Shown one piece after another: positions 1-32,688 of a stretch of 64,000 nt of DNA. This stretch comes from Chrysomallon squamiferum (Eukaryota; Animalia; Mollusca), in the NCBI GenBank assembly GCA_012295275.1, contig CM022676.1, positions 18,476,001 through 18,540,000 on the forward strand. Direction: 5' to 3'. The stretch's first letter is position 1. Every line of letters begins with the position of its first letter. Both the position numbers and the translations under genes were made by a program. Below the pieces are notes generated by a model, which worked only from the letters and a program-made list of their open reading frames with translations, did no database searches and had not been told where the DNA came from.

Positions 1-329
1 ATATAATTTTGTTGCAATCGTGGGCTTAGTAAATGATATTGCAAAAATACTACGTATTGCTAGCGTGGTTCACTAGAATGCCAGTCAGTACTCTAGAATA
101 CCTTAACATGAAATAAACCTTGTTGGATCTGCTCATGTAAGTTCAAATAAAGCCCTCGTGTTAAGAAAACCTTCTTCTATTAGCTTTCAATAGACAAATT
201 ATCATAACCGCGGCAAACACAGTAGGCGAAATTCGTGTGACAGTCCAGTTACAGATGATGGTAGTTCCATTCCTGAATTAGATGTAAAAGAATTAAGTGT
301 AGACCAACAGTTAGCTTTTTAAAAAATAT

Positions 330-905: not shown

Positions 906-1680
906 TATATAATGTTATATATGTATACACCTGCATTTTCTAGTGTGTGTGTATATATATATATATACACCTGTTCTCTAAATGAATGCACATATTAACA
1001 GGTAACCATTTTTTAACTTCTTTGGTATTAACAATTCCGGAAAACCTTCGTACGACTCAATCTTTTGTGATGCTACCCATTTATCAAATAATGTCGCTTT
1101 TTTTTTCTGGAAATATATATATATATGAGTATTTCACGTTAATTAATAAAAGTCAGTCAGGGCAGGGCAATTCCAGTCGTCATGGGAAAACAAAGATATT
1201 TCAGTTGGGATTTCTGCATAATGCTAATCACTTGTGTTAGTCAAGTGTTCAGGCGAGAATTGCCTTTGGTGATCAGAAACAGGATGCGCCACAGATATTT
1301 CCTCATCAGATAACCATGTGCTGCACGAGTGTTTCTATAGCGATAACAGCTTTCGGTTGGTGCTGACCTACGCAGAGGAAATCAACTGAGCCAGACATAT
1401 GTATATCCATTAGAGGTCTTCAACAAAGCAAGTGGTGGTCTCTACCAACCACAACGGAAAGTCTAACGCTATTGCTGACACTTTCTCGAGAAGATGATCT
1501 AGAGGTGTGTCGTGTATTAGATGTTTAGTAGAGTCCCTTAAAACAATATCTCACCATAGCTTATATAAAAACTCAGGGCTACATATTAAATATATTAAAC
1601 AGGAGACTTCCATCTCCGTTACACTTAGTGTATCTACCTTTTAAGGGTTACATAATAAAAATTAATAACCATACACAGAA

Positions 1681-1711
<31 letters not shown>

Positions 1712-1712
1712 C

Positions 1713-1771
<59 letters not shown>

Positions 1772-3886: not shown

Positions 3887-4031
3887 TACCAGTGCGGTTA
3901 GTGAATGGACGAGGAAAACCAACACAAGGTCGAGTTGAGATTCAAGTGAACGGGACGTGGGGAACAATCTGTGATGATTATTTTGATGAGAAAGATGCTT
4001 CAGTTTTATGTCACATGTTAGGATTTAGTCG
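3887..4031 (+). CDS. Receptor exon: SRCR domain, first half
   Basis: tttcag| acceptor; PVRLVNGRGKPTQGRVEIQVNGTWGTICDDYFDEKDASVLCHMLGFSR (canonical VRLV.G...GRVE....WGTVCDD); |gtagct donor, phase 2. Confidence 0.95.
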
Positions 4032-4190
4032 GTAGCTGCTTCATTTATTCACCTACTTGCTTACTTTCTTACAGTAATATTTTATATAAATGTAATTTAT
4101 TTCATTTTACTGACGATGAAAGTTAGTGATGATATCTACGTGAAATACTTTTCGACAGGATCGTTAATAATAATGATGATGATGATGATG

Positions 4191-4222
<32 letters not shown>

Positions 4223-4561
4223 TATAATAATTGTTATCAGAGGAAGAAGAAAAAAGCCAACATCAACAGCAAGTACAACAAAAAGTAACAACAATAGTAA
4301 TTTCCAGCAATGAAAATCTTGAGCTTTATAGCAAATATATTCAAATCATGCTCGAATAATCAAATTTCACTGGCGATATTTACACTATCTTTTTGGTAGC
4401 AAAGCATACATATTAAACATAGCTGAAATCACTTAGAAAGTAACAAATGTCTTCTGAAAACGTCATGACTACGAGAAGATCTGTTGTCCAAAGCATGTTC
4501 AATAATATTAATTTTACTGTGCATATTATTTATTTTACAATGCATATTAATTTTATTTAAG

Positions 4562-4731
4562 TCTTCATGCAACACCATATCAAAATGCTCACTTTGGAGA
4601 GGGAACTGGACAAATATGGCTTGATGATCTGAGATGTGATGGAGATGAAGACAGTGTTGAAAAGTGTTCATTTCCTGTCTGGGGAAAACACAACTGTTAT
4701 CACTCAGAGGATGCTGGTATCAGCTGTCAAT
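4562..4731 (+). CDS. Receptor exon: SRCR domain, second half (group A, 6 Cys over two exons)
   Basis: ttttatttaag| acceptor, phase 2 matches the previous exon; LHATPYQNAHFGEGTGQIWLDDLRCDGDEDSVEKCSFPVWGKHNCYHSEDAGISCQ; |gtcagt donor, phase 1. Confidence 0.95.
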
Positions 4732-5649
4732 GTCAGTTTTCATTTGACATTTTATTTTACTTTATTTTATATAATTTGCGTGTTTGTCAGCTACAAAACG
4801 TGTTGGATGTTGTCCAAAAGATTGTATTAATAAATTTAATTCTGTAATCATCAGCTTCTCACAAAATAGTTTAACTTTTTTCATCCACATGTTTTATCAC
4901 CATCTTATATTCTGTCTTTAAATTAGTTTTCGAATGGGGAATCCTTACTCTCAAATGTCATTATCCGTTAGAAGTCTCTAGTAGCAATTGAATACATTAC
5001 GTTATGTGATTTAAGATTTTCTTTATTTATGACTTGATTTAGTTTTTTATTAGTTAATTCATGAAATAATTAATTTATTTATTTATATGTGCTGTGCTTC
5101 TGTTTTATTTCTTTGTTTATTTTAACTTCATGTTAAAATTTCTGAATGTCACAACATTATATCGTGATGAATATATGAATGCATTTTACTTTTATTTTTC
5201 CTGATATATGACAAACATACTTTCTGCAGTTTAAAGGTCCATATCGCTTGAACAAATAATAATAACCACATTTGTAGTTCCATTTATTCTTCTTTTCTGT
5301 ATGTTTTTGGCTGTACTTTATAACGGCTGGACATACTGCAGAGCCGTATGAAATTCCATCTGTCCATATGAAAAATCAATCTCATTTAATTAAAAGCTAT
5401 CTTCAGATGCATTAAACCTGCAGCATATATCAAATTTGTTTTTCTCTATTTTTACTTGAAATAAGAATGATTGTTTTTATTCACTTTTTTTTCTTTTTTT
5501 TCTGACCATAATAAATTAATACACTGAGACCATACCTTTGATTTGCTGTTATAATGATACTATTTATTTATTTATGTATTTATTTATGTATTTATTTATT
5601 TATGTATTTATTTATGTATTTATTTATTTATTTATTTATGTATTTGTAG

Positions 5650-5904
5650 ATGGGGCCCTTTCTGTTACATTCAGTGCTTCATCTCCAGGAAACATTCTTG
5701 AAGGAGATATTCTAAATGTGACCTGTATTGTTGACTGTGACTCATCTTGTGTCTACACGTGGAGAAGTGAAGATCGGTATTTGGTCAGCGGCTCTCAGTT
5801 GGCTGTTGGTCCTGTGAGCAGAAATCAGACAGGACAAATATTTACATGTACAGCAAATAGTTCTGAACGTTATGGAAGTAACCAGTTCCAGCTTAGAGTT
5901 CTTT
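5650..5904 (+). CDS. Receptor exon: Ig-like domain 1
   Basis: ttgtag|...|gtaagt, phase 1-1; EGDILNVTCIVDCDSSCVYTW...QTGQIFTCTAN, with B- and F-strand Cys, C-strand Trp and an extra CxxxC loop. Confidence 0.9.
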
Positions 5905-6478
5905 GTAAGTTCCACATTCACAGATAAACTTACAACTCTGAATACAAAAATAATATGACAAACACAGAATAAAAAAGAAAAAAAAGAAAGAAAAGAAACA
6001 ACATAAAGATAAATATCGAATCACTGTTTTCATTTTTAATTCATCTCAACAAAATATGTTATATGAAAGCATGATAATAAGGTATAGAAATATTTTAAAA
6101 TAACTATTTGTTTCAGCGGCATCTTCAAAGTTATCGCTGTTTTATTGATGTTTGTCTACATGTGAAACAAAAACTTAAGAAAATAATTTATGAAACAAAA
6201 TATTATACTATAAGTGAGTAAAGTTTAAGAACATTTACCAGTTTTTCCCGCATACACTCCCAAACCAGTAGTTTGATCTATACTAAGAATTTTTCACTAA
6301 CAATAATATCTTTTTTATTGATTATATTTTAAACTATTTTGCGTTTATCTTTATTCTGGTGTGAAATTCTAACATTTTTAAATCCAGAACTGCCTACAAA
6401 ATTTGTTTTAGTAACTGCTTTAAAGTGCAATTATGATTATTTTGTAGTTTTTATTTATTATTATTATTATCATTATTA

Positions 6479-6525
<47 letters not shown>

Positions 6526-6738
6526 TCTTAAAGTTCATTATCTTTTTTGTTGTTGATTATTTTAATCGTATCTGTAGCTTGGTAATCAAAATTATATTCA
6601 GTTTTAACAGAATAATTCAAAAAGAACAGGACAAACGTGTCTGACTAGATAGTGCTGTAGATGTGCTGACACTGTTTACCTATCGTGTTGTCAGTACTTG
6701 TATGAAAAACTCCAGCCAGATTTTGTTTTAGCTACATA

Positions 6739-7250
6739 CAGTGGAACCTCAGGTTACGAACTTAATCCGTTCCAGAACTCGGCTCGTAAACCGAAGCAAT
6801 GTCAGACACACGACACCACTCTTATGATTTACAATTATTTCCTTCTTAACTTCTACTGTGATAGATTTATAATTTCCCCCAGCATGATAGCTTTCACGTT
6901 TTGTTTTCTTCGGCATAATAAGGGTATAATAAGAATTATACACATAAAATTAGCAGCACTTTAAAAATAATGGGACCGCACAATCTCGATCCAAAAATTA
7001 AAGAGCTGCAACTGCATATCGAAGACTAAAGGCCCTAATTTATGACACATAGTTGCTGTAGGGCATGCCTCTAATCCTTACTTTGACTTCTTATCTTTAT
7101 GTTGAGGTCAAAAGAAAGCTCGTTGTGGCGTGTCGTTGTAGTTCGTAATTCGGGACATTATTCGTCATCCGAGACAAAAACTGCCGAAGATCACGGTTCG
7201 CAATCCGAATTATTCGTTCTTCGAGGCGTTCGTAACTCGAGGTTCCACTA
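6739..7250. mobile_element. Pogo/Tigger-type MITE in intron
   Basis: TA then TIR CAGTGGAACCTCAGGTTACGAAC; the other end reads GTTCGTAACTCGAGGTTCCACT; ~510 bp, no transposase. Confidence 0.85.
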
Positions 7251-7515
7251 ACATTAAGTGATAATGAAAACGTTCTTCTTTAGTTGTTTTCGTGTTTCTA
7301 TTCTAATTTACTTGTAAGTGAAAATAAAAGTTAAAGCGCTGCAGACAATGTTTATGTTTCCACAACATACAAAGATACAAAATTGTTTTTCGAGTAAAAC
7401 AACTGACATTTTGTGTACTAGTTATCGAGAGATGATACTGCTCATTAAATTACTAGTTTTTGACTGGTTTCATCTTGCACCTCAATTATCGTTGATGTCG
7501 CGTATATCATTGCAG

Positions 7516-7794
7516 ACCAAACTTCTATTACATATTTGACGTTGAACTCCAATTCTACAAAGTTAACAGTTGATGAGCTGACTCCCATCAATTTGAGATG
7601 TGAAGTTGACAGTAATCCAGCATCTCACATCAAACTGTTAAACAACTCACAGATTCTACGTGAAGTGTACAGCTCCAAGTCAGTGGAGTACAGCTGGAAT
7701 GAAGCTGGATGTCTGGATACAGGATTTTACACTTGTGAAGCAGGAAACAACATCAAGTCTGATGTCAGTCAAAGCGTTCAGCTTGTTGTTAAAT
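7516..7794 (+). CDS. Receptor exon: Ig-like domain 2
   Basis: ttgcag|...|gtaatt, phase 1-1; LTVDELTPINLRCEVDSNPAS...AGCLDTGFYTCEAGN...VQLVVK (D.G.Y.C motif). Confidence 0.92.
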
Positions 7795-8002
7795 GTAATT
7801 GCTCTTTTTAACACAAATTAGAATATCAGTAATAACAGAAATAACAACTTACAAACATAGATATATATATACACCCTTTTACACATACACAGACACACTG
7901 ACATACACAGGTACATACATGCGCGTGGAGATGTTTCTTTCTTCTTCTCATATGGTAATGTTTATCAACGTTAGTTAGCCTGACTGTCTTTCTGCCTACA
8001 AG

Positions 8003-8068
8003 GTTCACTGAGGATTCCCGAGTATATTAATTTTTATATCAGTAAAAGGGTGCAACTTGTTGTTAAAT
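8003..8068 (+). other. Candidate 66-nt cassette exon created by tandem duplication of an intron
   Basis: 7780-8020 is repeated at ~8054-8312. The segment between the copied acceptor (ctacaag|) and copied donor (|gtaact) is open, phase 1-1: (C)SLRIPEYINFYISKRVQLVVK. Confidence 0.45.
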
Positions 8069-8295
8069 GTAACTGCTGTTTTTAGCACAAATTAGGATAT
8101 CAGTAATAGTAAAATAAGAACTTGCACACACATACATCTAAATATATGTACACAAACATATACATAGAGACACATACAGAAATATATATAGAATCATGCT
8201 CAGACACATAAACACATACATGCACAATTTTTTCCTTATTCTGATACCGTCATATTTTGAACGTTAATTAGCCTGACTTTCTTTCTGCCTACAAG

Positions 8296-8592
8296 GTCCA
8301 CCGAGGATTCCTTCCAATGTGAACATAAAGAGAATCAACTCTTCTGCCATCTCAGTGTCTTGGACAGAAGAATTTAACGGCGGCTTCGTGCAAACATTCA
8401 TAGTACAGTACAGAGAAAACACGTCAACACAGTGGAACAACGTCACAGAGAAATTTCTAGAACTTGGTTTACATACAACCCATACAACAGTGATAGGGTC
8501 TTTGAAATCTTTGAAGTATCTTGTGAGAATGTTGGCTTACAATAAATACGGAGTTAAAGGTTTTACAGATGAGAGATATATTTTGATGACAG
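8296..8592 (+). CDS. Receptor exon: fibronectin type III domain
   Basis: ctacaag|...|gtacct, phase 1-1; PPRIPSNV....SAISVSWTEEFNGGFVQTFIVQYR....W....YLVRMLAYNKYG, the nephrin-like FN3 signature (W...F.GG..Q.F.V.Y). Confidence 0.92.
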
Positions 8593-8718
8593 GTACCTAT
8601 GTTAATAATGAGATAACATACATTTTAATATTCTGTTTCTTGCTTTTCCGATTCAGGAATAAATCAAAGATTTCTATTTGTTTGTTTTACTTATTTATCT
8701 GAGAGCTCATTATTGTTA

Positions 8719-8788
<70 letters not shown>

Positions 8789-9493
8789 CCTTGTTTTTGT
8801 CTTAACTATAACATTTGAAAAGAAATTGTACAGGTGAAATTTTATATAAATGATCTTAGTAACAATACTAATGATTTTCTGGGATTTGTATAGTCTTTAT
8901 GTAGTAGTTTTATTCCAGTACTGATATACACATTATTTTTAAAATATTACATTATTTTCAGTATGATATTTAAAATTCATTAGCAAACTTTTAGTTGCCC
9001 AAGAATATCAAATTGAAAACAATTCCACTTCAAATAATTGAATGTTTAAGAACATTGGCCAATAGACTGAGCAGAAACAAGGTTCTAAATTATGTTGGAG
9101 AATAAAATTTAAAAATAATCAAATAAATACATAAAGAAATAAATAAATAAATAGATAAACAAAAAGATATATTCAGTATCTTCATTTATTGATTTTTAAA
9201 ATTAGTTTCCGGTACAGCTGTACATTAATGTTAACTTATTTTAACATTGGAAGCCTTTTTGTATCTCCTGAATCACAACAATATTAATTAATAGTTTTAC
9301 AGATAATTTATTTAAAGTTGCTTTCTTTTGACTTTGGCATTTATTTCCTTACCTCTGTCGTATTTTAAACCTTTATTTCAATATAGTTACCGTGTTGTAA
9401 TACATATACCTTTAGGCTATATTTTGTCACCTGTGTCAAACACTAGTAGTTTGTATGACATATCTCTATTCAAATGAACAATTGTTGTTTCAG

Positions 9494-9607
9494 ATGACGT
9501 GTCTAATATAAATTTGATAGCAGTCGCTGTTGGATCTGGATCAGGGATTCTCGTGTTAACTCTTCTTGTTGTCGCTACTGTCTTCATATACCGTAGATTG
9601 AGAAGAG
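9494..9607 (+). CDS. Receptor exon: transmembrane helix
   Basis: tttcag|...|gttcgt, phase 1-1; DVSNINLIAVAVGSGSGILVLTLLVVATVFIY followed by the basic stop-transfer RRLRR. Confidence 0.88.
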
Positions 9608-9798
9608 GTTCGTACTGTTTCTTTCTTTTTGTTTAAGTTTCAAAGTGCAAACGTGTGTCGTAGTGCATCTTCCTCTACGTCTATGCGTTTGTGAAAGAGA
9701 TAGATCGGGAAATATGTAATACTTAAACAATCTGAGATAAATAGGAATACTCTTTGTAACAAAATTAAATTAGATGAAGTATAATATATACAATTTCA

Positions 9799-9842
<44 letters not shown>

Positions 9843-9843
9843 G

Positions 9844-9904
<61 letters not shown>

Positions 9905-10062
9905 CATCTTCCATAATAAAATAAAATGAAATTTATTTTTATAAAGTATCGTTACTTAATATAACAAATGTTGTGATACGTTTTACCAGTTCACCTCATA
10001 TTAGTTTGTGTTTGTTTGTTATTTTAGTACCTGTTATTTTTATTTAACTTTGTTCTTTTTAG

Positions 10063-10096
10063 GAAATGCAAAAGATGAACATATGCATGGAACAAG
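10063..10096 (+). CDS. Receptor micro-exon: cytoplasmic tail 1
   Basis: ctttttag| GNAKDEHMHGT |gtaaca; phase 1 in, phase 2 out. Confidence 0.7.
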
Positions 10097-10504
10097 GTAA
10101 CACTAACTCATAGTATGAATTAATGTAGTTTATTATTGTTGTAACAGTCTATATGTTGGTAAATAGTGTGTTCATGTGTAACAGTGATTGTACATTTTAT
10201 TGCCTATAAATGAATGAAAAAATGTATAATGGAAACGAAATGTTAAGAGTCTCCTGATAAAATATCTTATCCTGTTTCAATATCAGTGGTGTAACTTTCC
10301 AATCGGTTATTTGTGTGTTGAAGTGAAGCTTTCAGTTCTAAATGACGAACACAGTTCAGAGTTTTTATAACCAGTGAAACTGTAACCATAAGCAAATACC
10401 GATTGATGTCCCAAATATTTCTGTGTAGTAGCCTCTGGTTTATTGACTATCTTGTGTGAGTTGACACATTGTTGTCTGGACGTAGGTTCTCATTCGAACT
10501 CCAG

Positions 10505-13500
10505 ACAGTTGTGTTAATGACACTGCGCTGTCGTGTACAGTTGTGTTAATGACACTGGGCTGTGGTGTACAGTTGTGCTAATGACACTGGGTTGTGGTGT
10601 ACAGTTGTGTTAATGACACTGGGTTGTGGTGTACAGTTGTGTTAATGACACTGGGTTGTGGTGTACAGCTGTGTTAATGACATTGGGCTGTCGTGTACAG
10701 TTGTGTTAATAAAGCTGTGTCGTCGTGTACAGTTGTGTTAATGACACTGGTCTGTCGTGTACAGTTGTGTTAATGACACTGGGCTGTCGTGTACAGTTGT
10801 GTTAATGACACTGGGTTGTGGTGTACAGCTGTGTTAATGACACTGGGCTGTCGTGTACAGTTGTGTTAATGACACTGTACTGTCGTGTACAGTTGTGTTA
10901 ATGACACTGGTCTGTCGTGTACAGTTGTGTTAATGACACTGGGTTGTGGTGTACAGCTGTGTTAATGACACTGGGCTGTCGTGTACAGTTGTGTTAATGA
11001 CAGGGGGTCGTAGTGTACAGTTGTGTTAATGACACTGTGTCGTCGTGTACAGTTGTGTTAATGACACTGGGCTGTCGTGTACAGTTGTGTTAATGACACT
11101 GGGCTGTCGTTTACAGTTGTCTGAATGCCACTGGGTCGTCGTGTACAGTTGTGTTAATGACACTGTGTCGTCGTGTACAGTTGTGTTAATGACACTTTGT
11201 CGTCGTGTACACTTGTGTTAATGACACTGTACTGTCGTGTACAGTTGTGTTAATGACACTGTACTGTCGTGTACAGTTGTGTTAATGACACCGGGCTGTC
11301 GTGTACAATTGTTGTGTAAATGACACTGTACTGTCGTGTACAGTTGTGTTAATGGCATTGGGCTGTTGTGTACAGTTGTGTTAATGACACTGGGCTGTCG
11401 TGTACAGTTGTGTTAATGACACTGTACTGTCGTGTACAGTTGTGTTAATGGCATTGGGCTGTTGTGTACAGTTGTGTTAATGACATTGGGCTGTCGTGTA
11501 CAGTTTTGTTAATGACACTGGGTCGTCGTGTACAGTTGTGTTAATGACACTGGGCTGTCGTGTACAGTTGTGTTAATGACAGTGGGCTGTCGTGTACAGT
11601 TGTGTTAATGACAGTGGGCTGTGGTGTACAGTTGTGTTAATGACACTGGGCTGTCGTGTACAGTTGTGTTAACGAAGCTGTGTCGCTGTGTACAGTTGTG
11701 TTAATGACACTGGGCTGTGGTGTACAGTTGTGTTAATGACACTGGGCACTCGTGTACAGTTGTGTTAATGACACTGTGCAGTCGTGTACAGTTGTGTTAA
11801 TAACACTGGGCTGTCGTGTACAGTTGTTGTGTTAATGACACTGTACTGTCGTGTACAGTTGTGTTAATGACACTGGGCAGTATGTACAGTTGTGTTAATG
11901 ACACTGGGCTGTCGTGTACACTTGTGTTAATGAAGCTGGGTCGTCTTGTAGTTGTGTTAATGAAACTGGGCTGTCGTGTACAGTTGTGTTAATGACACTG
12001 GGTCGTCGTGTACAGTTGTGTTAATGATACTGTGTCGTCGTGTACAGTTGTGTTAATGACACTTTGTCGTCGTGTACAGTTGTGTTAATGACACTGTACT
12101 GTCGTGTAAAGTTGTGTTAATGACACCGGGCTGTCGTGTACAATTGTTGTGTAAATGACACTGTACTGTCGTGTACAGTTGTGTTAATGACATTGTACTG
12201 TCGTGTACAGTTGTGTTAATGACACTGTACTGTCGTGTACAGTTGTGTTAATGACATTGGGCTGTCGTGTACAATTGTTGTGTTAATGACACTACTGTCG
12301 TGTACAGTTGTGTTAATGACATTGTACTGTCGTGTACAGTTGTGTTAATGACACTACTGTCGTGTACAGTTGTGTTAATGACATTGGGCTGTCGTGTACA
12401 GTTGTGTTAATGACATTGGGCTGTCGTGTACAATTGTTGTGTTAATGACACTACTGTCGTGTACAGCTGTGTTAATGACACTGTACTGTCGTGTACAGTT
12501 GTGTTAATGACACTGGTCTGTCGTGTACAGCTGTGTTAATGACACTGGGCTGTCGTGTACAGTTGTGTTAATGACACTGGGCTGTCGTGTACAGTTGTGT
12601 TAATGACACTGTACTGTGGTGTACAGTTGTGTTAATGACACTGGTCTGTCGTGTACAGTTGTGTTAATGACTCTGGGCTGTCGTGTACAGTTGTGTTAAT
12701 GACTCTGGGCTGTCGTGTACAGTTGTGTTAATGACTCTGGGCTGTCGTGTAGAGTTGTGTTAATGACACTGGGCTGTGCTGTACAGTTGTGTTAATGACA
12801 CTGTGCAGTCGTGTACAGTTGTGTTAATAACACTGGGCTGTCGTGTACAGTTGTTGTGTTAATGACACTGGGCAGTATGTACAGTTGTGTTAATGACACT
12901 GGGCTGTCGTGTACAGTTGTGTTAATGACACTGGGCTGTCGTGTACAGTTGTGTTAATGACACTGGGCTGTCGTGTACAGTTGTGTTAATGACACTGGGC
13001 TGTCGTCTACAGTTGTGTTAATGACACTGGGCTGTCGTGTACAGTTGTGTTAATGGCACTGTACTGTCGTGTACAGTTGTGTTAATGACACTGGTCTGTC
13101 GTGTACAGTTGTGTTAATGAAGCTGGGTCGTCGTGTACAGTTGTGTTAATGACACTGGGCTGTCGTGCACAGTTGTGTTAATGACACTGGGTCGTCGTGT
13201 ACAGTTGTGTTAATGACACTGGGCTGTTGTGTACAGTTGTGTTAATGACAGGGGGTCGTAGTGTACAGTTGTGTTAATGACACTGTGTCGTCGTGTTCAG
13301 TTGTGTTAATGACACTTTGTCGTCGTGTACAGTTGTGTTAATGACACTGTACTGTCGTGTACAGTTGTGTTAATGACACCGGGCTGTCGTGTACAATTGT
13401 TGTGTAAATGACAGTGTACTGTCGTGTACAGTTGTGTTAATGACATTGGGCTGTTGTGTACAGTTGTGTTAATGACACTGGGCTGTCGTGTACAGTTGTG

Positions 13501-16500
13501 TTAATGACATTGTACTGTCGTGTACAGTTGTGTTAATGACATTGGGCTGTCGTGTACAGTTTTGTTAATTACACTGGGTCGTCGTGTACAGTTGTGTTAA
13601 TGACACTGGGCTGTCGTGTACAGTTGTGTTAATGACAGTGGGCTGTCGTGTACAGTTGTGTTAATGACACTGGGCTGTCGTGTACAGTTGTGTTAATGAC
13701 ACTGGGCTGTCGTGTACAGTTGTGTTAATGACACTGGGCTGTCGTTTACAGTTGTGTTAATGACACTGGGTCGTCGTGTACACTTGTGTTAATGACACTG
13801 TGTCGACGTGTACAGTTGTGTTAATGACACTTTGTCGTCGTCTACAGTTGTGTTAATGACACTGTACTGTCGTGTACAGTTCTGTTAATGACACTGGGCA
13901 GTCGTGTACAGTTGTGTTAATGACATTGGGTCGTCCTGTACAGTTGTGTTAATGACAGGGGGTCGTAGTGTACAGTTGTGCTAATGACACTGTGTCGTCG
14001 TGTACAGTTGTGTTAATGACTCTGGGCTGTCGGGTAGAGTTGTGTTAATGACATTGGGCTGTCGTGTACTATTGTGTTAATGACACTGGGCTGTCGTGTA
14101 CAGTTGTGTTAATGACTCTGGGCTGTCGGGTAGAGTTGTGTTAATGACATTGGGCTGTCGTGTACAGTTGTGTTAATGACACTGCACTGTCGTGTACAGT
14201 TGTGTTAATGACTCTGGGCTGTCGTGTACAGTTGTGTTAATGACTCTGGGCTGTCGTGTAGAGTTGTGTTAATGACACTGGGCTGTGCTGTACAGTTGTG
14301 TTAATGACACTGGGCAGTCGTGTACAGTTGTGTTAATGACACTGTGCAGTCGTGTACAGTTGTGTTAATAACACTGGGCTGTCGTGTACAGTTGTTGTGT
14401 TAATGACACTGTACTGTCGTGTACAGTTGTGTTAATGACACTGGGCAGTATGTACAGTTGTGTTAATGACACTGGGCTGTCGTGTACAGTTGTGTTAATG
14501 ACACTGGTCTGTCGTGTACACTTGTGTTAAAGAAGCTGGGTCGTCTTGTACAGTTGTGTTAATGACACTGGGCTGTCGTGTACAGTTGTGTTAATGATAC
14601 TGGGTCGTCGTGTACAGTTGTGTTAATGACACTGGGCTGTCGTGTACAGTTGTGTTAATGACAGGGGGTCGTAGTGTACAGTTGTGTTAATGACACTGTG
14701 TCGTCGTGTACAGTTGAGTTAATGACACTGGGCTGTCGTGTACAGTTGTGTTAATGACGCTGGGCTGTCGTTTTCAGTTGTGTTAATGACACTGGGTCGT
14801 TGTGTACAGTTGTGTTAATGACACTGTGTCGTCGTGTACAGTTGTGTTAATGACACTGTCTTCGTGTACAGTTGTGTTAATGACACTGTACTGTCGTGTA
14901 CAGTTGTGTTAATGACACTGGGCTGTCGTGTACAATTGTTGTGTTAATGACACTGTACTGTCGTGTACAGTTGTGTTAATGACATTCGGCTGTCGTGTAC
15001 AGTTTTGTTAATGACACTGGGTCGTCGTGTACAGTTGTGTTAATGACACTGGGCTGTCGTGTACAGTTGTTGTGTTAATGACACTGTACAGTCGTGTACA
15101 GTTGTGTTAATGACATTGGGCTGTCGTGTACAGTTTTGTTAATGACACTGGGTCGTCGTGTACAGTTGTGTTAATGACACTGGGCTGTGGTGTACAGTTG
15201 TGTTAATGACACTGGGCAGTCGTGTACAGTTGTGTTAATAACACTGGGCTGTCGTGTACAGTTGTTGTGTTAATGACACTGTACTGTCGTGTACAGTTGT
15301 GTTAATGACATTGGGCTGTCGTGTACAGTTTTGTTAATGACACTGGGTCGTCGTGTAGAGTTGTGTTAATGACACTGGGCTGCGCTGTACAGTTGTGTTA
15401 ATGACACTGGGCAGTCGTGTACAGTTGTGTTAATGACACTGTGTAGTCGTGTACAGTTGTGTTAATAACACTGGGCTGTCGTGTACAGTTGTTGTGTTAA
15501 TGACACTGTACTGTCGTGTACAGTTGTGTTAATGACATTGGCAGTATCTACAGTTGTGTTAATGACACTGGGCTGTCGTGTACAGTTGTGTTAATGACAC
15601 TGGTCTGTCGTGTACAGTTTTGTTAATGAAGCTGGGTCGTCTTGTACAGTTGTGTTAATGACACTGGGCTGTCGTGTACAGTTGTGTTAATGACACTGGG
15701 TCGTCGTGTACAGTTGTGTTAATGACACTGGGCTGTCGTGTACAGTTGTGTTAATGACAGGGGTCGTAGTGTACAGTTGTGTTAATGACACTGTGTCGTC
15801 GTGTATAGTTGTGTTAATGACACTGGGCTGTCGTGTACAGTTGTGTTAATGACACTGGGCTGTCGTTTTCAGTTGTGTTAATGACACTGGGTCGTTGTGT
15901 ACAGTTGTGTTAATGACACTGTGTCGTCGTGTACAGTTGTGTTAATGACACTGTCTTCGTGTACAGTTGTGTTAATGACACTGTACTGTCGTGTACAGTT
16001 GTGTTAATGACACTGGGCTGTCGTGTACACTTCTGTTAATGAAGCTGGGTCGTCGTGTACAGTTGTGTTAATGACACTGGGCTGTCGTGTACAATTGTTG
16101 TGTTAATGACACTGTACTGTCGTGTACAGTTGTGTTAATGACATTGGGCTGTCGTGTACAGTTTTGTTAATGACACTGGGTCGTCGTGTACAGTTGTGTT
16201 AATGACACTGGGCTGTCGTGTACAGTTGTTGTGTTAATGACACTGTACAGTCGTGTACAGTTGTGTTAATGACATTGGGCTGTCGTGTACAGTTTTGTTA
16301 ATGACACTGGGTCGTCGTGTACAGTTGTGTTAATGACACTGGGCTGTGGTGTACAGTTGTGTTAATGACACTGGGCAGTCGTGTACAGTTGTGTTAATAA
16401 CACTGGGCTGTCGTGTACAGTTGTTGTGTTAATGACACTGTACTGTCGTGTACAGTTGTGTTAATGACATTGGGCTGTCGTGTACAGTTTTGTTAATGAC

Positions 16501-19500
16501 ACTGGGTCGTCGTGTAGAGTTGTGTTAATGACACTGGGCTGTGCTGTACAGTTGTGTTAATGACACTGGGCAGTCGTGTACAGTTGTGTTAATGACACTG
16601 TGTAGTCGTGTACAGTTGTGTTAATAACACTGGGCTGTCGTGTACAGTTGTTGTGTTAATGACACTGTACTGTCGTGTACAGTTGTGTTAATGACACTGG
16701 GCAGTATCTACAGTTGTGTTAATGACACTGGGCTGTCGTGTACAGTTGTGTTAATGACACTGGGCTGTGGTGTACAGTTTTGTTAATGAAGCTGGGTCGT
16801 CTTGTACAGTTGTGTTAATGACACTGGGCTGTCGTACAGTTGTGTTAATGACACTGGGTCGTCGTGTACAGTTGTGTTAATGACACTGGGCTGTCGTGTA
16901 CAGTTGTGTTAATGACAGGGGGTCGTAGTGTACAGTTGTGTTAATGACACTGTGTCGTCGTGTATAGTTGTGTTAATGACACTGGGCTGTCGTGTACAGT
17001 TGTGTTAATGACACTGGGCTGTCGTTTTCAGTTGTGTTAATGACACTGGGTCGTTGTGTACAGTTGTGTTAATGACACTGTGTCGTCGTGTACAGTTGTG
17101 TTAATGACACTGTCTTCGTGTACAGTTGTGTTAATGACACTGTACTGTCGTGTACAGTTGTGTTAATGACACTGGGCTGTCGTGTACACTTCTGTTAATG
17201 AAGCTGGGTCGTCTTGTACAGTTGTGTTAATGACACTGGGCTGTCGTGTACAGTTGTGTTAATGACACTGTGTAGTCGTGTACAGTTGTGTTAATAACAC
17301 TGGGCTGTCGTGTACAGTTGTTGTGTTAATGACACTGTACTGTCGTGTACAGTTGTGTTAATGACATTGGCAGTATCTACAGTTGTGTTAATGACACTGG
17401 GCTGTCGTGTACAGTTGTGTTAATGACACTGGTCTGTCGTGTACAGTTTTGTTAATGAAGCTGGGTCGTCTTGTACAGTTGTGTTAATGACACTGGGCTG
17501 TCGTGTACAGTTGTGTTAATGACACTGGGTCGTCGTGTACAGTTGTGTTAATGACACTGGGCTGTCGTACAGTTGTGTTAATGACAGGGGTCGTAGTGTA
17601 CAGTTGTGTTAATGACACTGTGTCGTCGTGTATAGTTGTGTTAATGACACTGGGCTGTCGTGTACAGTTGTGTTAATGACACTGGGCTGTCGTTTTCAGT
17701 TGTGTTAATGACACTGGGTCGTTGTGTACAGTTGTGTTAATGACACTGTGTCGTCGTGTACAGTTGTGTTAATGACACTGTCTTCGTGTACAGTTGTGTT
17801 AATGACACTGTACTGTCGTGTACAGTTGTGTTAATGACACTGGGCTGTCGTGTACACTTCTGTTAATGAAGCTGGGTCGTCGTGTACAGTTGTGTTAATG
17901 ACACTGGGCTGTCGTGTACAATTGTTGTGTTAATGACACTGTACTGTCGTGTACAGTTGTGTTAATGACATTGGGCTGTCGTGTACAGTTTTGTTAATGA
18001 CACTGGGTCGTCGTGTACAGTTGTGTTAATGACACTGGGCTGTCGTGTACAGTTGTTGTGTTAATGACACTGTACAGTCGTGTACAGTTGTGTTAATGAC
18101 ATTGGGCTGTCCTGTACAGTTTTGTTAATGACACTGGGTCGTCGTGTACAGTTGTGTTAATGACACTGGGCTGTGGTGTACAGTTGTGTTAATGACACTG
18201 GGCAGTCGTGTACAGTTGTGTTAATAACACTGGGCTGTCGTGTACAGTTGTTGTGTTAATGACACTGTACTGTCGTGTACAGTTGTGTTAATGACATTGG
18301 GCTGTCGTGTACAGTTTTGTTAATGACACTGGGTCGTCGTGTAGAGTTGTGTTAATGACACTGGGCTGTGCTGTACAGTTGTGTTAATGACACTGGGCAG
18401 TCGTGTACAGTTGTGTTAATGACACTGTGTAGTCGTGTACAGTTGTGTTAATAACACTGGGCTGTCGTGTACAGTTGTTGTGTTAATGACACTGTACTGT
18501 CGTGTACAGTTGTGTTAATGACACTGGGCAGTATCTACAGTTGTGTTAATGACACTGGGCTGTCGTGTACAGTTGTGTTAATGACACTGGGCTGTGGTGT
18601 ACAGTTTTGTTAATGAAGCTGGGTCGTCTTGTACAGTTGTGTTAATGACACTGGGCTGTCGTGTACAGTTGTGTTAATGACACTGGGTCGTCGTGTACAG
18701 TTGTGTTAATGACACTGGGCTGTCGTGTACAGTTGTGTTAATGACAGGGGGTCGTAGTGTACAGTTGTGTTAATGACACTGTGTCGTCGTGTATAGTTGT
18801 GTTAATGACACTGGGCTGTCGTGTACAGTTGTGTTAATGACACTGGGCTGTCGTTTTCAGTTGTGTTAATGACACTGGGTCGTTGTGTACAGTTGTGTTA
18901 ATGACACTGTGTCGTCGTGTACAGTTGTGTTAATGACACTGTCTTCGTGTACAGTTGTGTTAATGACACTGTACTGTCGTGTACAGTTGTGTTAATGACA
19001 CTGGGCTGTCGTGTACACTTCTGTTAATGAAGCTGGGTCGTCTTGTACAGTTGTGTTAATGACACTGGGCTGTCGTGTACAGTTGTGTTAATGACACTGG
19101 GCTGTCGTTTACAGTTGTGTTAATGACACTGTGCAGTCGTGTACAGTTGTGTTAATAACACTGGGCTGTCGTGTACAGTTGTTGTGTTAATGACACTGTA
19201 CTGTTGTGTACAGTTGTGTTAATGACACTGGGCAGTATGTACAGTTGTGTTAATGACACTGGGCTGTCGTGTACAGTTGTGTTAATGACACTGGTCTGTC
19301 GTGTACACTTGTGTTAATGAAGCAGGGTCGTCTTGTACAGTTGTGTTAATGACACTGGGCTGTCGTGTACAGTTGTGTTAATGACACTGGGTCGTCGTGT
19401 ACAGTTGTGTTAATGACACTGGGCTGTCGTGTACAGTGGTGTTAATGACAGGGGGTCGTAGTGTACAGTTGTGTTAATGACACTGTGTCGTCGTGTACAG

Positions 19501-22500
19501 TTGTGTTAATGACACTGTGTCGTCGTGTACAGTTGTGTTAATGACACTGGGCTGTCGTGTACAGTTGTGTTAATGACACTGGGCTGTCGTTTACAGTTGT
19601 GTTAATGACACTGTGTCGTCGTGTACAGTTGTGTTAATGACACTTTGTCGTCGTGTACAGTTGTGTTAATGACACTGTACTGTCGAGTACAGTTGTGTTA
19701 ATGACACTGGGCTGCCGTGTACAATTGTTGTGTTAATGACACTACTGTCGTGTACAGTTGTGTTAATGACATTGGGCTGTCGTGTACAGTTGTGTTAATG
19801 ACATTGGGCTGTCGTGTACAGTTGTGTTAATGACACTGGGCTGTCGTGTACAGTTGTGTTAATGACACTGCGCTGTCGTGTACTATTGTGTTAATGACAC
19901 TGGGCTGTCGTGTACAGTTGTGTTAATGACACTGGGCTGTCGTTTACAGTTGTGTTAATGACAGTGGGCTGTGGTGTACAGTTGTGTTAATGACACTGGG
20001 CTGTCGTGTTCAGTTGTGTTAACGAAGCTGTGTCGCTGTGTACAGTTGTGTTAATGACACTGGGCTGTGGTGTACAGTTGTGTTAATGAAGCTGGGTCGT
20101 CTTGTACAGTTGTGTTAATGACACTGGGCTGTCGTGTACAGTTGTGTTAATGACACTGGGTCGTCGTGTACAGTTGTGTTAATGACACTGGGCTGTCGTG
20201 TACAGTTGTGTTAATGACAGGGGGTCGTAGTGTACAGTTGTGTTAATGACACTGTGTCGTCGTGTACAGTTGTGTTAATGACACTGGGCTGTCGTGTACA
20301 GTTGTGTTAATGACACTGGGCTGTCGTTTACAGTTGTGTTAATGACACTGGGTCGTCGTGTACAGTTGTGTTAATGAGACTGTGTCGTCGTGTACAGTTG
20401 TGTTAATGACACTTTGTCGTCGTGTACAGTTGTGTTAATGAGACTGTACTGTCGTGTACAGTTGTGTTAATGACATTGGGCTGTCTTGTACAGTTGTGTT
20501 AATGACACTGTGTCGTCGTGTACAGTTGTGTTAATGACACTTTGTCGTCGTGTACAGTTGTGTTAATGACACTGTACAGTCGTGTACAGTTGTGTTAATG
20601 ACATTGGGCTGTCGTGTACAGTTTTGTTAATGACACTGGGTCGTCGTGTACAGTTGTGTTAATGACACTGGGCTGTGGTGTACAGTTGTGTTAATGACTC
20701 TGGGCAGTCGTGTACAGTTGTTGTGTTAATGACACTGTACTGTCGTGTACAGTTGTGTTAGTGACACTGTGCAGTATGTACAGTTGTGTTAATGACACTG
20801 GGCTGTCGTGTACAGTTGTTGTGTTAATGACACTGGTCTGTCGTGTACACTTGTGTTAATGAAGCTGGGTCCTCTTGTACAGTTGTGTTGATGACTCTGG
20901 GATGTCGTGTACAGTTGTGTTAATGACACTGGGTCGTCGTGTACAGTTGTGTTAATGACACTGGGCTGTCGTTTACAGTTGTGTTAATGACAGGGGGTCG
21001 TAGTGTACAGTTGTGTTAATGACACTGTGTCGTCGTGTACAGTTGTGTTGATGACACTGGGCTGTCGTGTACAGTTGTGTTAATGACACTGGGCTGTCGT
21101 TTACAGTTGTGTTAATGACACTGGGTCGTCGTGTACAGTTGTGTTAATGACACTGTGTCGTCGTGTACAGTTGTGTTAATGACACTTTGTCGTCGTGTAG
21201 AGTTGTGTTAATGACACTACTGTCGTGTACAGTTGTGTTAATGACACTGGGCTGTGGTGTACAGTTGTGTTAATGACATTGGGCTGTCGTGTACAGTTGT
21301 GTTAATGACACTGGGCTGTCGTGTACAGTTGTGTTAATGACACTGGGCTGTCGTGTACAGTTGTGTTAATGACACTGGGCTGTCGTGTACAGTTGTGTTA
21401 ATGACACTGGGCTGTCGTCGTACAGTTGTGTTAATGACAGTGGCCTGTGGTGTACAGTTGTGTTAATGACACTGGGCTGTCGTGTTCAGTTGTGTTAACG
21501 AAGCTGTGTCGCTGTGTACAGTTGTGTTAATGACACTGGGCTGTGGTGTACAGTTGTGTTAATGAAGCTGGGTCGTCGTGTACAGTTGTGTTAATGACAC
21601 TGGGCTGTCGTGTACAGTTGTGTTAATGACACTGGGTCGTCGTGTACAGTTGTGTTAATGACACTGGGCTGTCGTGTACAGTTGTGTTAATGACAGGGGG
21701 TCGTAGTGTACAGTTGTGTTAATGACACTGTGTCGTCGTGTACAGTTGTGTTAATGACACTGGGCTGTCGTGTACAGTTGTGTTAATGACACTGGGCTGT
21801 CGTTTACAGTTGTGTTAATGACACTGGGTCGTCGTGTACAGTTGTGTTAATGACACTGTGTCGTCGTGTACAGTTGTGTTAATGACACTTTGTCGTCGTG
21901 TACAGTTGTGTTAATGACACTGTACTGTCGTGTACAGTTGTGTTAATGACACTGGGCTGTCGTGTACAGTTGTGTTAATGACACTGGGCTGTCGTGTACA
22001 GTTGTGTTAATGACACTGGGCTGTCGTGTACAGTTGTGTTAATGACACTGGGCTGTCGTGTACAGTTGTGTTAATGACACTGGGCTGTCGTGTACAGTTG
22101 TGTTAATGATACTGGGCTGTCGTGTACAGTTGTGTTAATGACACTGGGCTGTCGTGTACAGTTGTGTTAATGACACTGGGCTGTCGTGTACAGTTGTGTT
22201 AATGACAGTGGGCTGTGGTGTACAGTTGTGTTAATGACACTGGGCTGTCGTGTTCAGTTGTGTTAACGAAGCTGTGTCGCTGTGTACAGTTGTGTTAATG
22301 ACACTGGGCTGTGGTGTACAGTTGTGTTAATGACACTGGGCAGTCGTGTACAGTTGTGTTAATGACACTGGGCTGTCGTGTACAGTTTTATTAATGAAGC
22401 TGTGTCGTCGTGTACAGTTGTGTTAATGACACTGGGCTGTCGTGTACAGTTGTGTTAATGACATTGGGTCGTCCTGTACAGTTGTGTTAATGACAGGGGG

Positions 22501-22699
22501 TCGTAGTGTACAGTTGTGTTAATGACACTGTGTCGTCGTGTACAGTTGTGTTAATGACACTGGGCTGTCGTGTACAGTTGTGTTAATGACTCTGGGCTGT
22601 CGGGTAGAGTTGTGTTAATGACATTGGGCTGTCGTGTACAGTTGTGTTAATGACACTGGACTGTCGTGTACAGTTGTGTTAATGACTCTGGGCTGTCGT
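10505..22699. repeat. Intronic 32-bp tandem satellite, ~380 monomers, with higher-order blocks
   Basis: Consensus GTACAGTTGTGTTAATGACACTGGGCTGTCGT (period 32, e.g. 12911 to 12943); near-constant ~22-bp core and a variable ~10-bp part. Confidence 0.98.
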
Positions 22700-23728
22700 T
22701 GTCAATGTTAGTGAATTTTACACCACGCATCTTAAATGTGTTGATTAATTAACACCACTTTCTCTTAAGTGAGAAAACTGATCCTTGCTGATCCAGAATG
22801 TGCTATACTAAACATGTATAACCATATTCTGAAATGGTGATCTCAGTAGGGGATGTTTTTGATGTGATATTTGCTGCTTTCAATGTCCAATCGTGACCAC
22901 ACAGATTTCTTTAAGAGAGTGAGCGAATGCGTACATCACTCTTTGGATCCCGTTTTTCTATTCAGACAATGGAACACTGTCAAATTTACATTTTTCTTTT
23001 TCTTTTGATATCTTTCCAGTTAAGAGTAAGTGTGTGTATGTCAGTATATGTAGGCATGCCACGGACCATCTTCCTAACAAAGAGTGTCTGCCTATGAGTC
23101 TGTATGTGGTGTATTTATATATGTGATGCGTTTATGTATGTTTATGTGTATGCATGTATGTAAGTCAGCTGTCCATTTTTTTGTGTTTGTACGTGTGGGT
23201 ATATTTTGTGTGTGTTTGTGTGTATACATATATGTCTATGTGTGATGTGTGCATTTCTTTGTGTTTGTGTGTGATATGTATATGACATCTATCTGTACGC
23301 CCCTTTGTGTCGTGTTTTCATATAGAAAGATTGAACTGTATAAGAAAGCAAAATCACATAAAATAGAAAGAGTGTCTGTTCAGTAGTCATCGTGAAGAAT
23401 GATCGGCTATAATTATTTCATGTAACGCCTTTCATATTAATGTCGTACATATAAATAATGAGGATACATCGAGTTAGTTGTTTTATAGCATTTTCTTTAT
23501 GTATGTGCACGTAAATATGTTAATGTGTGGGTTTGTTTGTGTTATTATCCAAGAATCCATAAGTTACATTATTCAGTAATTTCCTTTTAATTAACTATTA
23601 TTTACTTTTATATAGTTATTTATTTTGTTAAATATATTCTTTTTCTCTCATTTTCTTATGTATGTCTTATTTTAACGTATTAGTCAATAACTGTATTGCT
23701 CTTCTTCTTATTTTTACGATTATTATTA

Positions 23729-23774
<46 letters not shown>

Positions 23775-23873
23775 TACAGAGAAATCATTTAACTTTGAAT
23801 TATGAGAAGTCTGTAAATGTTATTATTAAAACTGTAAAGTTACCTCTTAGAACGTGTCTCTTTCAAATCACAG

Positions 23874-23926
23874 GAACGTTTCTGAACCGCGGTCTAGAAC
23901 GTACGACAATCTTGTTTTTGATCCTG
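23874..23926 (+). CDS. Receptor exon: cytoplasmic tail 2 (YDNL)
   Basis: tcacag| phase 2 matches 10096; RNVSEPRSRTYDNLVFDP; strong |gtaagt donor, phase 1. Confidence 0.75.
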
Positions 23927-24454
23927 GTAAGTGCAATATTTTCTAAATGTTTATGTGAAGACTTACTTTAATGAAAGCGGTTTAAATTCTGATCGTTCAA
24001 TACATATTAAGACGTCTGTGGTGTCCATCAGGAAAGAATGAATGAAGCTACGAAAGAAAGTGATGAATGGAGAAGAAAAGAAAGGAATATGAAAGAGAAA
24101 GGTGAAAAGTAATAATGAAATATTAATAATATAAAAAAAGTACTGATTTAGATGCTGGGCTAAGAACGTGTGAGTTATTTTGCATAACGTTAATGAGATA
24201 ACATAACTAATTTATATGTTCTCCTCAGATACCCAAAGTTTAATATTTGTCTGTGATAAATACAGTGTTTATAAATTAATATTTGTGCAGTATGGCAGCT
24301 TCTTTTATAAGCACCATAAACCAATTTCTATCTTTATAGCTGTGTAAATTAGAATCTGGTGAAGTTAGGCTGTATATCGCGTTTGACATTGTTTTCTCTG
24401 TGTCACTCCTTTTTTATTTTTATTATTTTTTATTTTTTAATGTGCATGTATGTA

Positions 24455-24506
<52 letters not shown>

Positions 24507-24623
24507 ACTTTATTTAATAATCTGTTGTTGTTTTTTGTTACTTCTACGTTTAATTGTTAATGTATGACTTACTCTTTTTGAAACGAAACATAAATATGTA
24601 TGTGTTTTTATTATGTCTTGTAG

Positions 24624-24688
24624 GGAACAGTCCAGAACCGAATGTGTATGAAGTACTTGGTGTCGATGATAATGGACGAACAAATTAA
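24624..24688 (+). CDS. Receptor terminal exon (YEVL, stop)
   Basis: tcttgtag| phase 1; GNSPEPNVYEVLGVDDNGRTN* (TAA 24686-24688). Confidence 0.75.
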
Positions 24689-32488: not shown

Positions 32489-32688
32489 NNNNNNNNNNNN
32501 NNNNNNNNNNNNNNNNNNNNNNNNNNNNNNNNNNNNNNNNNNNNNNNNNNNNNNNNNNNNNNNNNNNNNNNNNNNNNNNNNNNNNNNNNNNNNNNNNNNN
32601 NNNNNNNNNNNNNNNNNNNNNNNNNNNNNNNNNNNNNNNNNNNNNNNNNNNNNNNNNNNNNNNNNNNNNNNNNNNNNNNNNNNNNNNN
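32489..32688. other. Assembly gap (200 N)
   Basis: Run of N; the round length suggests a scaffolding placeholder. Confidence 1.

What the first reader, a model, noticed from the sequence alone, without database searches (positions are those of the whole stretch)
3887..24688. SRCR-Ig-Ig-FN3 single-pass receptor with an ITAM-like tail
Seen: nine GT-AG exons join with consistent phases into ~470 aa without stops. The order is group A SRCR, two Ig, FN3, TM, then a ~50-aa tail containing YDNL-VFDPGNSPEPNV-YEVL. Known: SRCR domains bind microbial surfaces (MARCO, DMBT1), Ig-FN3-TM is the nephrin-like scaffold, the ITAM consensus is YxxL/I-x6-12-YxxL/I, and YxN binds the Grb2 SH2 domain. Inference: a scavenger head was exon-shuffled (all extracellular domain boundaries are phase 1) onto an IgSF signalling stalk, giving a candidate invertebrate pattern-recognition receptor coupled to Syk/SHP/Grb2. 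I do not recognise it as a named gene. The ORF track misses the SRCR and TM exons and does not give the tail in its true frame.
Basis: partly seen in the sequence, partly recalled or inferred. Interest (0 to 1): 0.8.

Follow-up and report, generated by a model that had tools for sequence, protein, structure and literature searches.

The report
Snail scavenger-headed immune receptor gene
A nine-exon gene, likely from a deep-sea vent-type snail, encodes a surface protein with a scavenger (SRCR) domain on an immunoglobulin-fibronectin stalk and a two-tyrosine inner tail; it is a variant of a large snail receptor family and likely senses microbes and signals through those tyrosines, which is untested.

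Summary
Observation confirmed. Nine AG/GT exons (3887-24688, +) give 469 aa with no internal stop: SRCR, Ig, Ig, FN3, TM, 55-aa tail. An RNA contig of a relative (88% alike) bridges SRCR to Ig1. The tail junctions have no RNA support, and no signal-peptide exon was found.

The closest relatives are an expanded Gigantopelta aegis (vent snail) Ig-FN3-TM family. Two RefSeq models in it already have SRCR heads (XP_041372560, XP_041372972), so the architecture is a subfamily, not unique. The SRCR keeps all 8 cation-binding side chains mapped from human DMBT1.

The ITAM reading is only partly supported. YDNL-x12-YEVL fits the loose consensus only. Of 17 relatives' tails, 10 carry a normally spaced pair (5 strict) and none has this spacing. 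SHP recruitment has no motif support.

Best reading: a calcium-dependent scavenger receptor with phosphotyrosine signalling (0.55); endocytic sorting is the main rival. The scan has noted ITAM/ITIM Ig receptors elsewhere in this genome, but no SRCR-headed one. New variant of a known kind.

The parts
3887..4031 (+). Exon 1 of the model: first half of a group A SRCR domain (needs an upstream phase-1 exon, not found)
   Evidence: Pfam PF00530 E 1.7e-12; AG/GT sites; joined to the next exon in 3 of 3 RNA runs of relatives
4562..4731 (+). Exon 2: second half of the SRCR domain
   Evidence: PF00530 E 1.1e-13; bridged to Ig1 by one RNA contig, 88% alike
5650..5904 (+). Exon 3: Ig1, the family's C-x3-C-x3-C Ig type, strongly diverged
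   Evidence: PF00047 E 1.3e-4; at most 41% identical to 18 G. aegis domains; long branch
7516..7794 (+). Exon 4: Ig2, well conserved with the Ig-only subfamily
   Evidence: PF13895 E 1.2e-8; up to 77% identical to G. aegis proteins
8003..8068 (+). Possible 66-nt in-frame phase 1-1 cassette exon made by a roughly 280-bp tandem duplication that copied the FN3 acceptor and the Ig2 donor
   Evidence: Direct repeats 7752-7834/8026-8108 and 7962-8018/8255-8311; open frame of 21 whole codons between AG and GT; use not shown
8296..8592 (+). Exon 5: FN3 domain
   Evidence: PF00041 E 2.4e-7; 46-57% identical to G. aegis family FN3
9494..9607 (+). Exon 6: transmembrane helix and basic stop-transfer residues
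   Evidence: Best matches are the TM segments of the SRCR-headed G. aegis models, 50% over 30 aa to XP_041372560
10063..10096 (+). Exon 7: 34-nt juxtamembrane tail exon (predicted)
   Evidence: AG/GT sites and phase fit; no RNA joint seen
10505..22699 (.). Intronic tandem array, 32-bp unit, about 380 copies
   Evidence: Tandem Repeats Finder
23874..23926 (+). Exon 8: carries the first Tyr motif YDNL (also YxN) (predicted)
   Evidence: CAG/GTAAGT sites and phase fit; no RNA laid; only weak likeness to a relative's motif, rank 11
24624..24688 (+). Exon 9: carries the second Tyr motif YEVL and the stop codon (predicted)
   Evidence: top window match to the family's last Tyr motif; poly(A) hexamers from 25097 onward

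Best explanation
This is an intact, 5'-incomplete SRCR-Ig-Ig-FN3-TM gene of an expanded snail receptor family, and its product likely binds acidic microbial or matrix surfaces through calcium on the SRCR head and likely signals through its two tail tyrosines. Shown: gene anatomy, family kinship, spliced SRCR-Ig transcripts in a relative, conserved cation-binding residues. Inferred: a glycosylated three-domain stalk lifts the SRCR; multivalent ligand clusters the receptor; a Src-type kinase phosphorylates YDNL and YEVL; a Syk/Shark-type tandem-SH2 kinase docks on the widely spaced pair or across two receptors, and YxN may bind a Grb2-type adaptor; the output would be phagocytosis or an ERK response. 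The gene probably arose by exchange of phase-1 exon modules within the family.
For: Anatomy. SRCR-Ig1 RNA bridge. The eight SALSA/DMBT1 cation side chains (D1019, D1020, D1023, D1026, D1058, D1059, N1081, E1086; PMC7043408 passages) map by motif and spacing to D29, D30, D33, D36, D69, D70, N92, E97; 8 of 8 are kept, matched fully by none of the 7 G. aegis SRCR repeats checked. Tyr-motif tails are a family trait: 10 of 17 tails have YxxL/I/M-x7-YxxL/I/M and 13 of 17 have YxN. Oyster CgIgR shows that a mollusc Ig receptor with an ITAM binds bacteria and recruits Syk (PMC6994640 passages). Spacing of 6-12 is an accepted ITAM range (PMC9731471 passage). A CEACAM5-annotated family is reported as expanded and immune-related in G. 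aegis (PMC7895826 passage); 3 of 27 hits carry CEACAM-like names, so it may be this family. Modularity: identity to G. aegis differs by domain (Ig2 77%, SRCR 57%, FN3 57%, Ig1 41%), the TM is closest to SRCR-headed models, and an RNA contig joins one SRCR to another.
Against: No ligand, expression site or binding partner was tested. The spacing fails the strict ITAM consensus (x6-9 in bioRxiv 2022.03.04.482883) and there is no acidic residue at -2 or -3 of the first Tyr. No relative shares the spacing (0 of 17), and SRCR-headed relatives have no ITAM. The tail exons lack RNA support. The RNA evidence is from one study and from non-identical copies. Domain trees do not resolve the gene's place: FN3 groups with the SRCR-headed models at bootstrap 40, and Ig1 is an unplaced long branch, so direction and timing of shuffling are not shown. 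The domain-wise identity differences could be unequal rates rather than exchange.
Confidence: 0.55

Rival explanations
1. It is an uptake receptor: the two YxxL motifs act unphosphorylated as tyrosine-based sorting signals that carry SRCR-bound cargo to endosomes and lysosomes, with no Syk-type signalling.
For: Both motifs fit the YxxL sorting consensus (recalled, not from a call). The pair is not conserved as an ITAM, and the closest SRCR-headed relative repeats single YDTL motifs far apart. Lysosome genes are prominent in the symbiont organ of peltospirid snails (PMC7895826 passage).
Against: Relatives keep normally spaced ITAM-type pairs and YxN motifs, and the last Tyr motif here matches the second half of such a pair. 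The two roles can coexist.
Confidence: 0.2
2. It is an epithelial adhesion or matrix/mineral-binding protein rather than an immune sensor; the SRCR binds glycosaminoglycan, chitin-associated matrix or mineral, and the tail signals adhesion.
For: SRCR genes are expanded and highly expressed in mantle and scale epithelium of the scaly-foot snail (PMC7142155 passages; PMC7736800 passages). The same cation site binds hydroxyapatite and heparin in SALSA. Ig-FN3 stalks are typical of adhesion molecules (Atlas neighbours NCAM, fasciclin-2; scores under 0.9, leads only).
Against: The Pfam table of those DMBT1 copies holds no 'fibronectin' or 'immunoglobulin' term (file 9), so this is not that array type. 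Fast divergence, copy-number variation and Tyr-motif tails fit immune receptor families better (inference).
Confidence: 0.15
3. The locus is a partial or decaying duplicate, or the model mis-joins exons 8-9, so the protein with this tail is not made.
For: No signal exon found upstream in the window. A 13.8-kb intron precedes the Tyr exons. No RNA contig identical to this copy spans its junctions. The region shows fresh duplications.
Against: No stop or frameshift in 469 codons, all splice sites canonical, all structural Cys and cation ligands kept. Exon 9 matches the family's terminal motif. The window starts only 3.9 kb upstream, so 5' exons may lie outside it.
Confidence: 0.1

Closest known systems
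Gigantopelta aegis RefSeq models XP_041372560.1 ('DMBT1-like') and XP_041372972.1/XP_041372971.1 ('DSCAM-like'/'titin-like')
   Same: SRCR head(s), the same Ig type, FN3, and a related TM segment; SRCR 54-57%, FN3 about 50%, TM 38-50% identical.
   Different: They have 3-4 SRCR and one to six Ig-FN3 units, lack the Ig2-type domain, and have no ITAM in the predicted tail. They are automatic predictions with no description found.
G. aegis Ig-only members of the same family (hemicentin-, nephrin-, CEACAM-like labels; 27 proteins)
   Same: Ig2 70-77% identical in full-length matches; same FN3; Tyr-motif tails, one subgroup ending in a motif like exon 9's.
   Different: V-like Ig head instead of SRCR (0 of 27 carry PF00530); an extra Ig between Ig2 and FN3; Tyr pairs spaced by 7, not 12.
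Oyster CgIgR (PMC6994640, passages read)
   Same: Mollusc single-pass Ig receptor with a two-Tyr tail; shown to bind bacteria and recruit Syk.
   Different: Five Ig domains, no SRCR or FN3 described; its quoted ITAM has an 8-residue spacer and acidic lead-in. No homology test was run.
Hydractinia Alr family (bioRxiv 10.1101/2022.03.04.482883, passages read)
   Same: Expanded invertebrate Ig-FN3-TM family with exon shuffling and ITAM/ITIM tails.
   Different: Cnidarian allorecognition genes with V-set heads; no SRCR in the passages read. A parallel, not shown to be homologous.
Vertebrate SRCR proteins: DMBT1/SALSA, MARCO, SCARA5, CD163; teleost SRCR-Ig-TM models
   Same: SRCR fold and cation sites. 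Fish database models combine SRCR, Ig, TM and Tyr-rich tails.
   Different: No FN3 in the fish SRCR-Ig hits; MARCO and SR-A are type II collagenous trimers and DMBT1 is secreted (recalled). Likely independent assemblies.

Membership tests
Group A SRCR domain | Pfam SRCR match with six conserved cysteines | tested here: met
   PF00530 above cut-off on both exons; Cys 28, 41, 73, 83, 93, 103
Group A SRCR domain | Cation-binding acidic residues of the ligand site | tested here: met
   8 of 8 side chains, mapped by motif and spacing from PMC7043408 passages; no structure was folded
Group A SRCR domain | Ca-dependent binding of microbes or polyanions | not testable with these tools
   Needs a binding assay
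ITAM-bearing receptor | Strict consensus YxxL/I-x6-8(9)-YxxL/I | tested here: not met
   Spacer is 12
ITAM-bearing receptor | Loose consensus YxxL/I-x6-12-YxxL/I | tested here: met
   range as in PMC9731471; 0.035% of 200,000 shuffles
ITAM-bearing receptor | Pair conserved in homologues | tested here: not met
   0 of 17 tails have this spacing; 5 of 17 have a strict x7 ITAM, 10 of 17 if Met is allowed
ITAM-bearing receptor | Phosphorylation and Syk-type recruitment | not testable with these tools
   No genome held to check for Syk; binding needs experiment
ITIM/ITSM receptor | S/I/V/L-x-Y-x-x-I/V/L or T-x-Y-x-x-V/I in the tail | tested here: not met
   No match in the model's tail
Peltospirid expanded Ig-FN3-TM family (G. 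aegis; CEACAM/nephrin-like labels) | Best matches of Ig2, FN3 and TM lie in the family | tested here: met
   27 of 27 Ig2 hits are G. aegis; named FN3 hits at 49-57% are G. aegis; TM best hit XP_041372560
Peltospirid expanded Ig-FN3-TM family (G. aegis; CEACAM/nephrin-like labels) | Orthology or monophyly with the SRCR-headed subgroup | tested here: inconclusive
   FN3 tree support 40/91, Ig1 unplaced
Scaly-foot snail DMBT1 tandem array | SRCR repeats without Ig or FN3 | tested here: not met
   This gene has Ig and FN3; the array's Pfam table lists neither term
Nephrin/SYG-2 orthologues | Long Ig array plus one FN3 and cross-phylum sequence conservation (recalled) | tested here: not met
   Only two Ig domains; no hit outside G. 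aegis for Ig2 (word-limited search)

The most novel reading that the evidence does not exclude
Vent-type snails carry a germline mix-and-match receptor kit in which phase-1 exon modules (V-like Ig or 1-4 SRCR heads, variable Ig/FN3 stalks, several Tyr-motif tails) are recombined between paralogues, and this gene is a version that wires a calcium-dependent SRCR sensor directly to Syk-type activation to control or eat bacteria, including symbionts.
Probability: 0.25. Interest if true: 0.7.

Novelty: new variant of a known kind. Interest (0 to 1): 0.42.

Why it matters
Invertebrate SRCR proteins are often called pattern receptors, but few have an evident route to signalling. A short single-chain receptor with an intact SRCR ligand site and a Tyr-motif tail makes that link testable with one domain and one peptide. 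It also shows that a family hidden under scattered automatic names in vent snails varies its heads, stalks and tails, which bears on how chemosymbiotic snails might recognise bacteria. The parts and the logic all have precedents (oyster CgIgR, Hydractinia Alr, fish SRCR-Ig models), so a specialist would find it useful rather than very surprising.

Tried and rejected
No whole genome is held, so paralogue count, the 5' exon and a Syk gene could not be checked. Search with SRCR exon 2: 77 generic SRCR proteins, none from G. aegis and none with FN3. Search with Ig1: 0 of 50 candidates passed. Metagenome locus scan with Ig2: 377 pattern matches, none confirmed. Of the 150 FN3 hits listed I scanned only 12 with Pfam (the ten new ones at 46% identity or more, plus two at 33%); 2 of 12 had SRCR, and most of the rest are long multi-FN3 proteins at about 30% that were not scanned. 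Signal-exon search: ten ATG-to-donor candidates at four places, none convincing; a profile of relatives' signal peptides found nothing upstream. Hidden Tyr exon: three weak exon candidates in tail-side introns, none with a YxxL; profiles of the family's YEDL and YSSL motifs found no match at the tail exons. Domain trees were unresolved. Atlas searches with parts of XP_041372560 gave only scores under 0.9. No fold or complex job was run; phosphotyrosine binding cannot be modelled with those tools. RNA contigs do not cover exon 7 joints; this is not evidence against them. Literature: no paper held all of SRCR, fibronectin type III, immunoglobulin, ITAM, invertebrate; a six-term search returned one unrelated paper; searches showed no description of this architecture in the listings. 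The architecture tables in the supplement of PMC10855680 were not readable and may list SRCR-Ig-FN3 proteins; file 13 of PMC7142155 was not searched.
Full report
Observation. I rebuilt the gene from coordinates. Nine exons on the + strand (3887-4031, 4562-4731, 5650-5904, 7516-7794, 8296-8592, 9494-9607, 10063-10096, 23874-23926, 24624-24688) have AG acceptors and GT donors, phases 2,1,1,1,1,1,2,1, and give 469 codons and a stop. Pfam on the single exons finds SRCR twice (two halves), Ig twice and FN3. The SRCR has six cysteines, so it is group A. The tail is 55 residues with YDNL at 441 and YEVL at 457. Two such motifs arise in 0.2% of 200,000 tail shuffles, and a loose ITAM in 0.035%, uncorrected for choosing the exons by eye. 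The first exon opens with a phase-1 acceptor, so the gene is 5'-incomplete; no convincing signal exon lies in 1-3886. Intron 7 is 13.8 kb and mostly a 32-bp tandem array.

RNA. Three coded runs of one study hold related sequence. Their contigs come from paralogues or a relative, not this exact copy. They join the two SRCR exons in 3 of 3 runs, Ig1 to Ig2 in one, and Ig2 to FN3 in one with a short side of 28 letters. One 230-nt contig carries 118 letters of SRCR exon 2 followed by 106 letters of Ig1 at 88% identity (table 8), which shows SRCR-to-Ig splicing in the family. Another contig joins one SRCR to the start of a second (table 5c), and others continue from the end of Ig2 into sequence absent here that reads like the family's extra Ig (table 7; my reading).

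Family. The Ig2 exon retrieves 27 proteins of 77 candidates, all from the vent snail Gigantopelta aegis, 70-77% identical in full-length matches, with mixed automatic names and no SRCR. They are V-like Ig, several more Ig, FN3, TM and tail. The FN3 exon searched against the unnamed representatives gave 1271 hits, 150 listed. I scanned 12 of them and two have SRCR heads: XP_041372560, four SRCR-Ig-FN3-TM, and XP_041372972, three SRCR and five Ig-FN3 units, with a six-unit isoform; both are G. aegis. Their TM segments are the best matches to this gene's TM. So the organism is likely a peltospirid-type snail (inference), and the SRCR-on-stalk design is a subfamily within an expanded family. Identity to G. 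aegis differs by domain: Ig2 77%, SRCR 57%, FN3 57%, Ig1 41%, against medians among G. aegis copies of 82, 80, 64 and 70%. This fits module exchange but also unequal rates; trees of FN3 (37 rows) and Ig1 (38 rows) did not place the gene with support. A roughly 280-bp duplication in intron 4 copies both neighbouring splice sites and creates a possible in-frame 66-nt exon at 8003-8068, a sign of local recombination.

Ligand end. In SALSA/DMBT1 the side chains D1019, D1020, D1023, D1026, D1058, D1059, N1081 and E1086 hold three cations, and mutating D1019 or D1020 abolishes binding to a bacterial protein, heparin and hydroxyapatite (PMC7043408, passages). By motif and spacing these map to D29, D30, D33, D36, D69, D70, N92 and E97 here; all eight are identical, which none of the seven G. 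aegis SRCR repeats checked matches in full. Solved MARCO, SCARA5, SR-A, CD163 and DMBT1 domains match both exons. The head is therefore likely a working Ca-dependent binder, but the same site binds microbial, matrix and mineral ligands, so it does not prove an immune role.

Tail. The pair has a 12-residue spacer. That is outside the strict consensus (x6-9; bioRxiv 2022.03.04.482883, passages) and at the edge of the loose one (6-12; PMC9731471, passage); that human FcgammaRIIA uses 12 is recalled, not checked. There is no ITIM or ITSM. Of 32 G. aegis family proteins examined, 17 had a predicted TM and a tail of 35 residues or more by my heuristic: 5 have a strict ITAM, 10 have one if Met is allowed, 13 have YxN, and none has the 12 spacing. 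XP_041372560 has Tyr motifs 29 residues apart, and the XP_041372972 model has no tail Tyr. Exon 9 matches the family's last Tyr motif (rank 1 of 103,550 positions with a 9-residue profile, rank 2 with 13 residues) but has lost the terminal YxN. So Tyr signalling looks like a family trait, while this exact pair is particular to this gene and may have been formed by bringing two one-Tyr exons together (inference).

Mechanism. Most likely (0.55) the receptor binds polyanionic surfaces through calcium, clusters, is phosphorylated, and recruits a Syk/Shark-type kinase or a Grb2-type adaptor. The precedent is oyster CgIgR (PMC6994640, passages). Rivals are pure endocytic sorting (0.2), adhesion or matrix binding (0.15), and a partial or mis-joined gene (0.1). 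Only the anatomy, kinship, relative's splicing and residue conservation are shown.

Prior knowledge. G. aegis has an expanded CEACAM5-annotated family among its immune genes (PMC7895826, passages); whether it is this family is an inference from 3 of 27 names. Scaly-foot snail DMBT1 arrays are described (PMC7142155, PMC7736800, passages), and their Pfam table names no Ig or FN3. Sponges combine SRCR with FN3 or Ig (PMC6208332, passages), and a survey of 1747 SRCR genes does not name this architecture in the passages and section read (PMC10855680; supplement unreadable). Fish models combine SRCR, Ig, TM and Tyr-rich tails. My searches found no paper describing SRCR-Ig-FN3-TM with an ITAM-like tail in a mollusc; the library lacks most subscription papers. 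Earlier notes of this scan report ITAM/ITIM Ig receptor pairs in the same genome and nothing SRCR-headed; I did not test them.

Verdict. A real, apparently undescribed variant of a known kind: a lineage-expanded invertebrate Ig-FN3-TM receptor with Tyr-motif tail, here with an SRCR head. Interest 0.42.

Noticed in passing
window:33355-33780 (-) and units near 36.6, 38.7, 40.8 and 42.9 kb (-): A second gene on the minus strand: an exon at about 33397-33735 weakly resembles the family's V-like head (tblastn E 0.006; no Pfam Ig hit), and four near-identical 2.07-kb tandem units each carry the same short Ig-like half exon. A 200-N gap lies at about 32489-32688. It may be a real exon array or an assembly artefact.
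   Followed up: partly
window:6611-6780: One RNA contig of a relative joins the end of Ig1 to this intronic stretch and then to Ig2. At 170 nt it would shift the frame; it overlaps the start of what looks like a repeat element. A possible truncating cassette exon in a paralogue.
   Followed up: no
window:52303-53770 (-): BTB-BACK-PHR gene (Pfam), the BTBD6-like type reported as expanded in vent snails (PMC7736800 passage).
   Followed up: partly
window:49390-50420 (+): Tc1-like transposon with HTH_Tnp_Tc3_2 and DDE_3 matches in a 282-codon open stretch.
   Followed up: no
window:28240-29300 (+): Rearranged, partly duplicated fragments, one reading as a transmembrane-like segment near 29090-29200 and one as an 80-codon open frame after an AG at about 28247 with no Pfam match; possibly remnants of another receptor gene.
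   Followed up: partly
window:10505-22699: 12.2-kb array of a 32-bp unit (about 380 copies) inside the intron before the Tyr exons. Not tested for hidden micro-exons.
   Followed up: no
P0025 (G. aegis): A family member whose tail repeats a roughly 38-residue block with ITIM-like and YxN motifs four times, suggesting tail-exon amplification.
   Followed up: no
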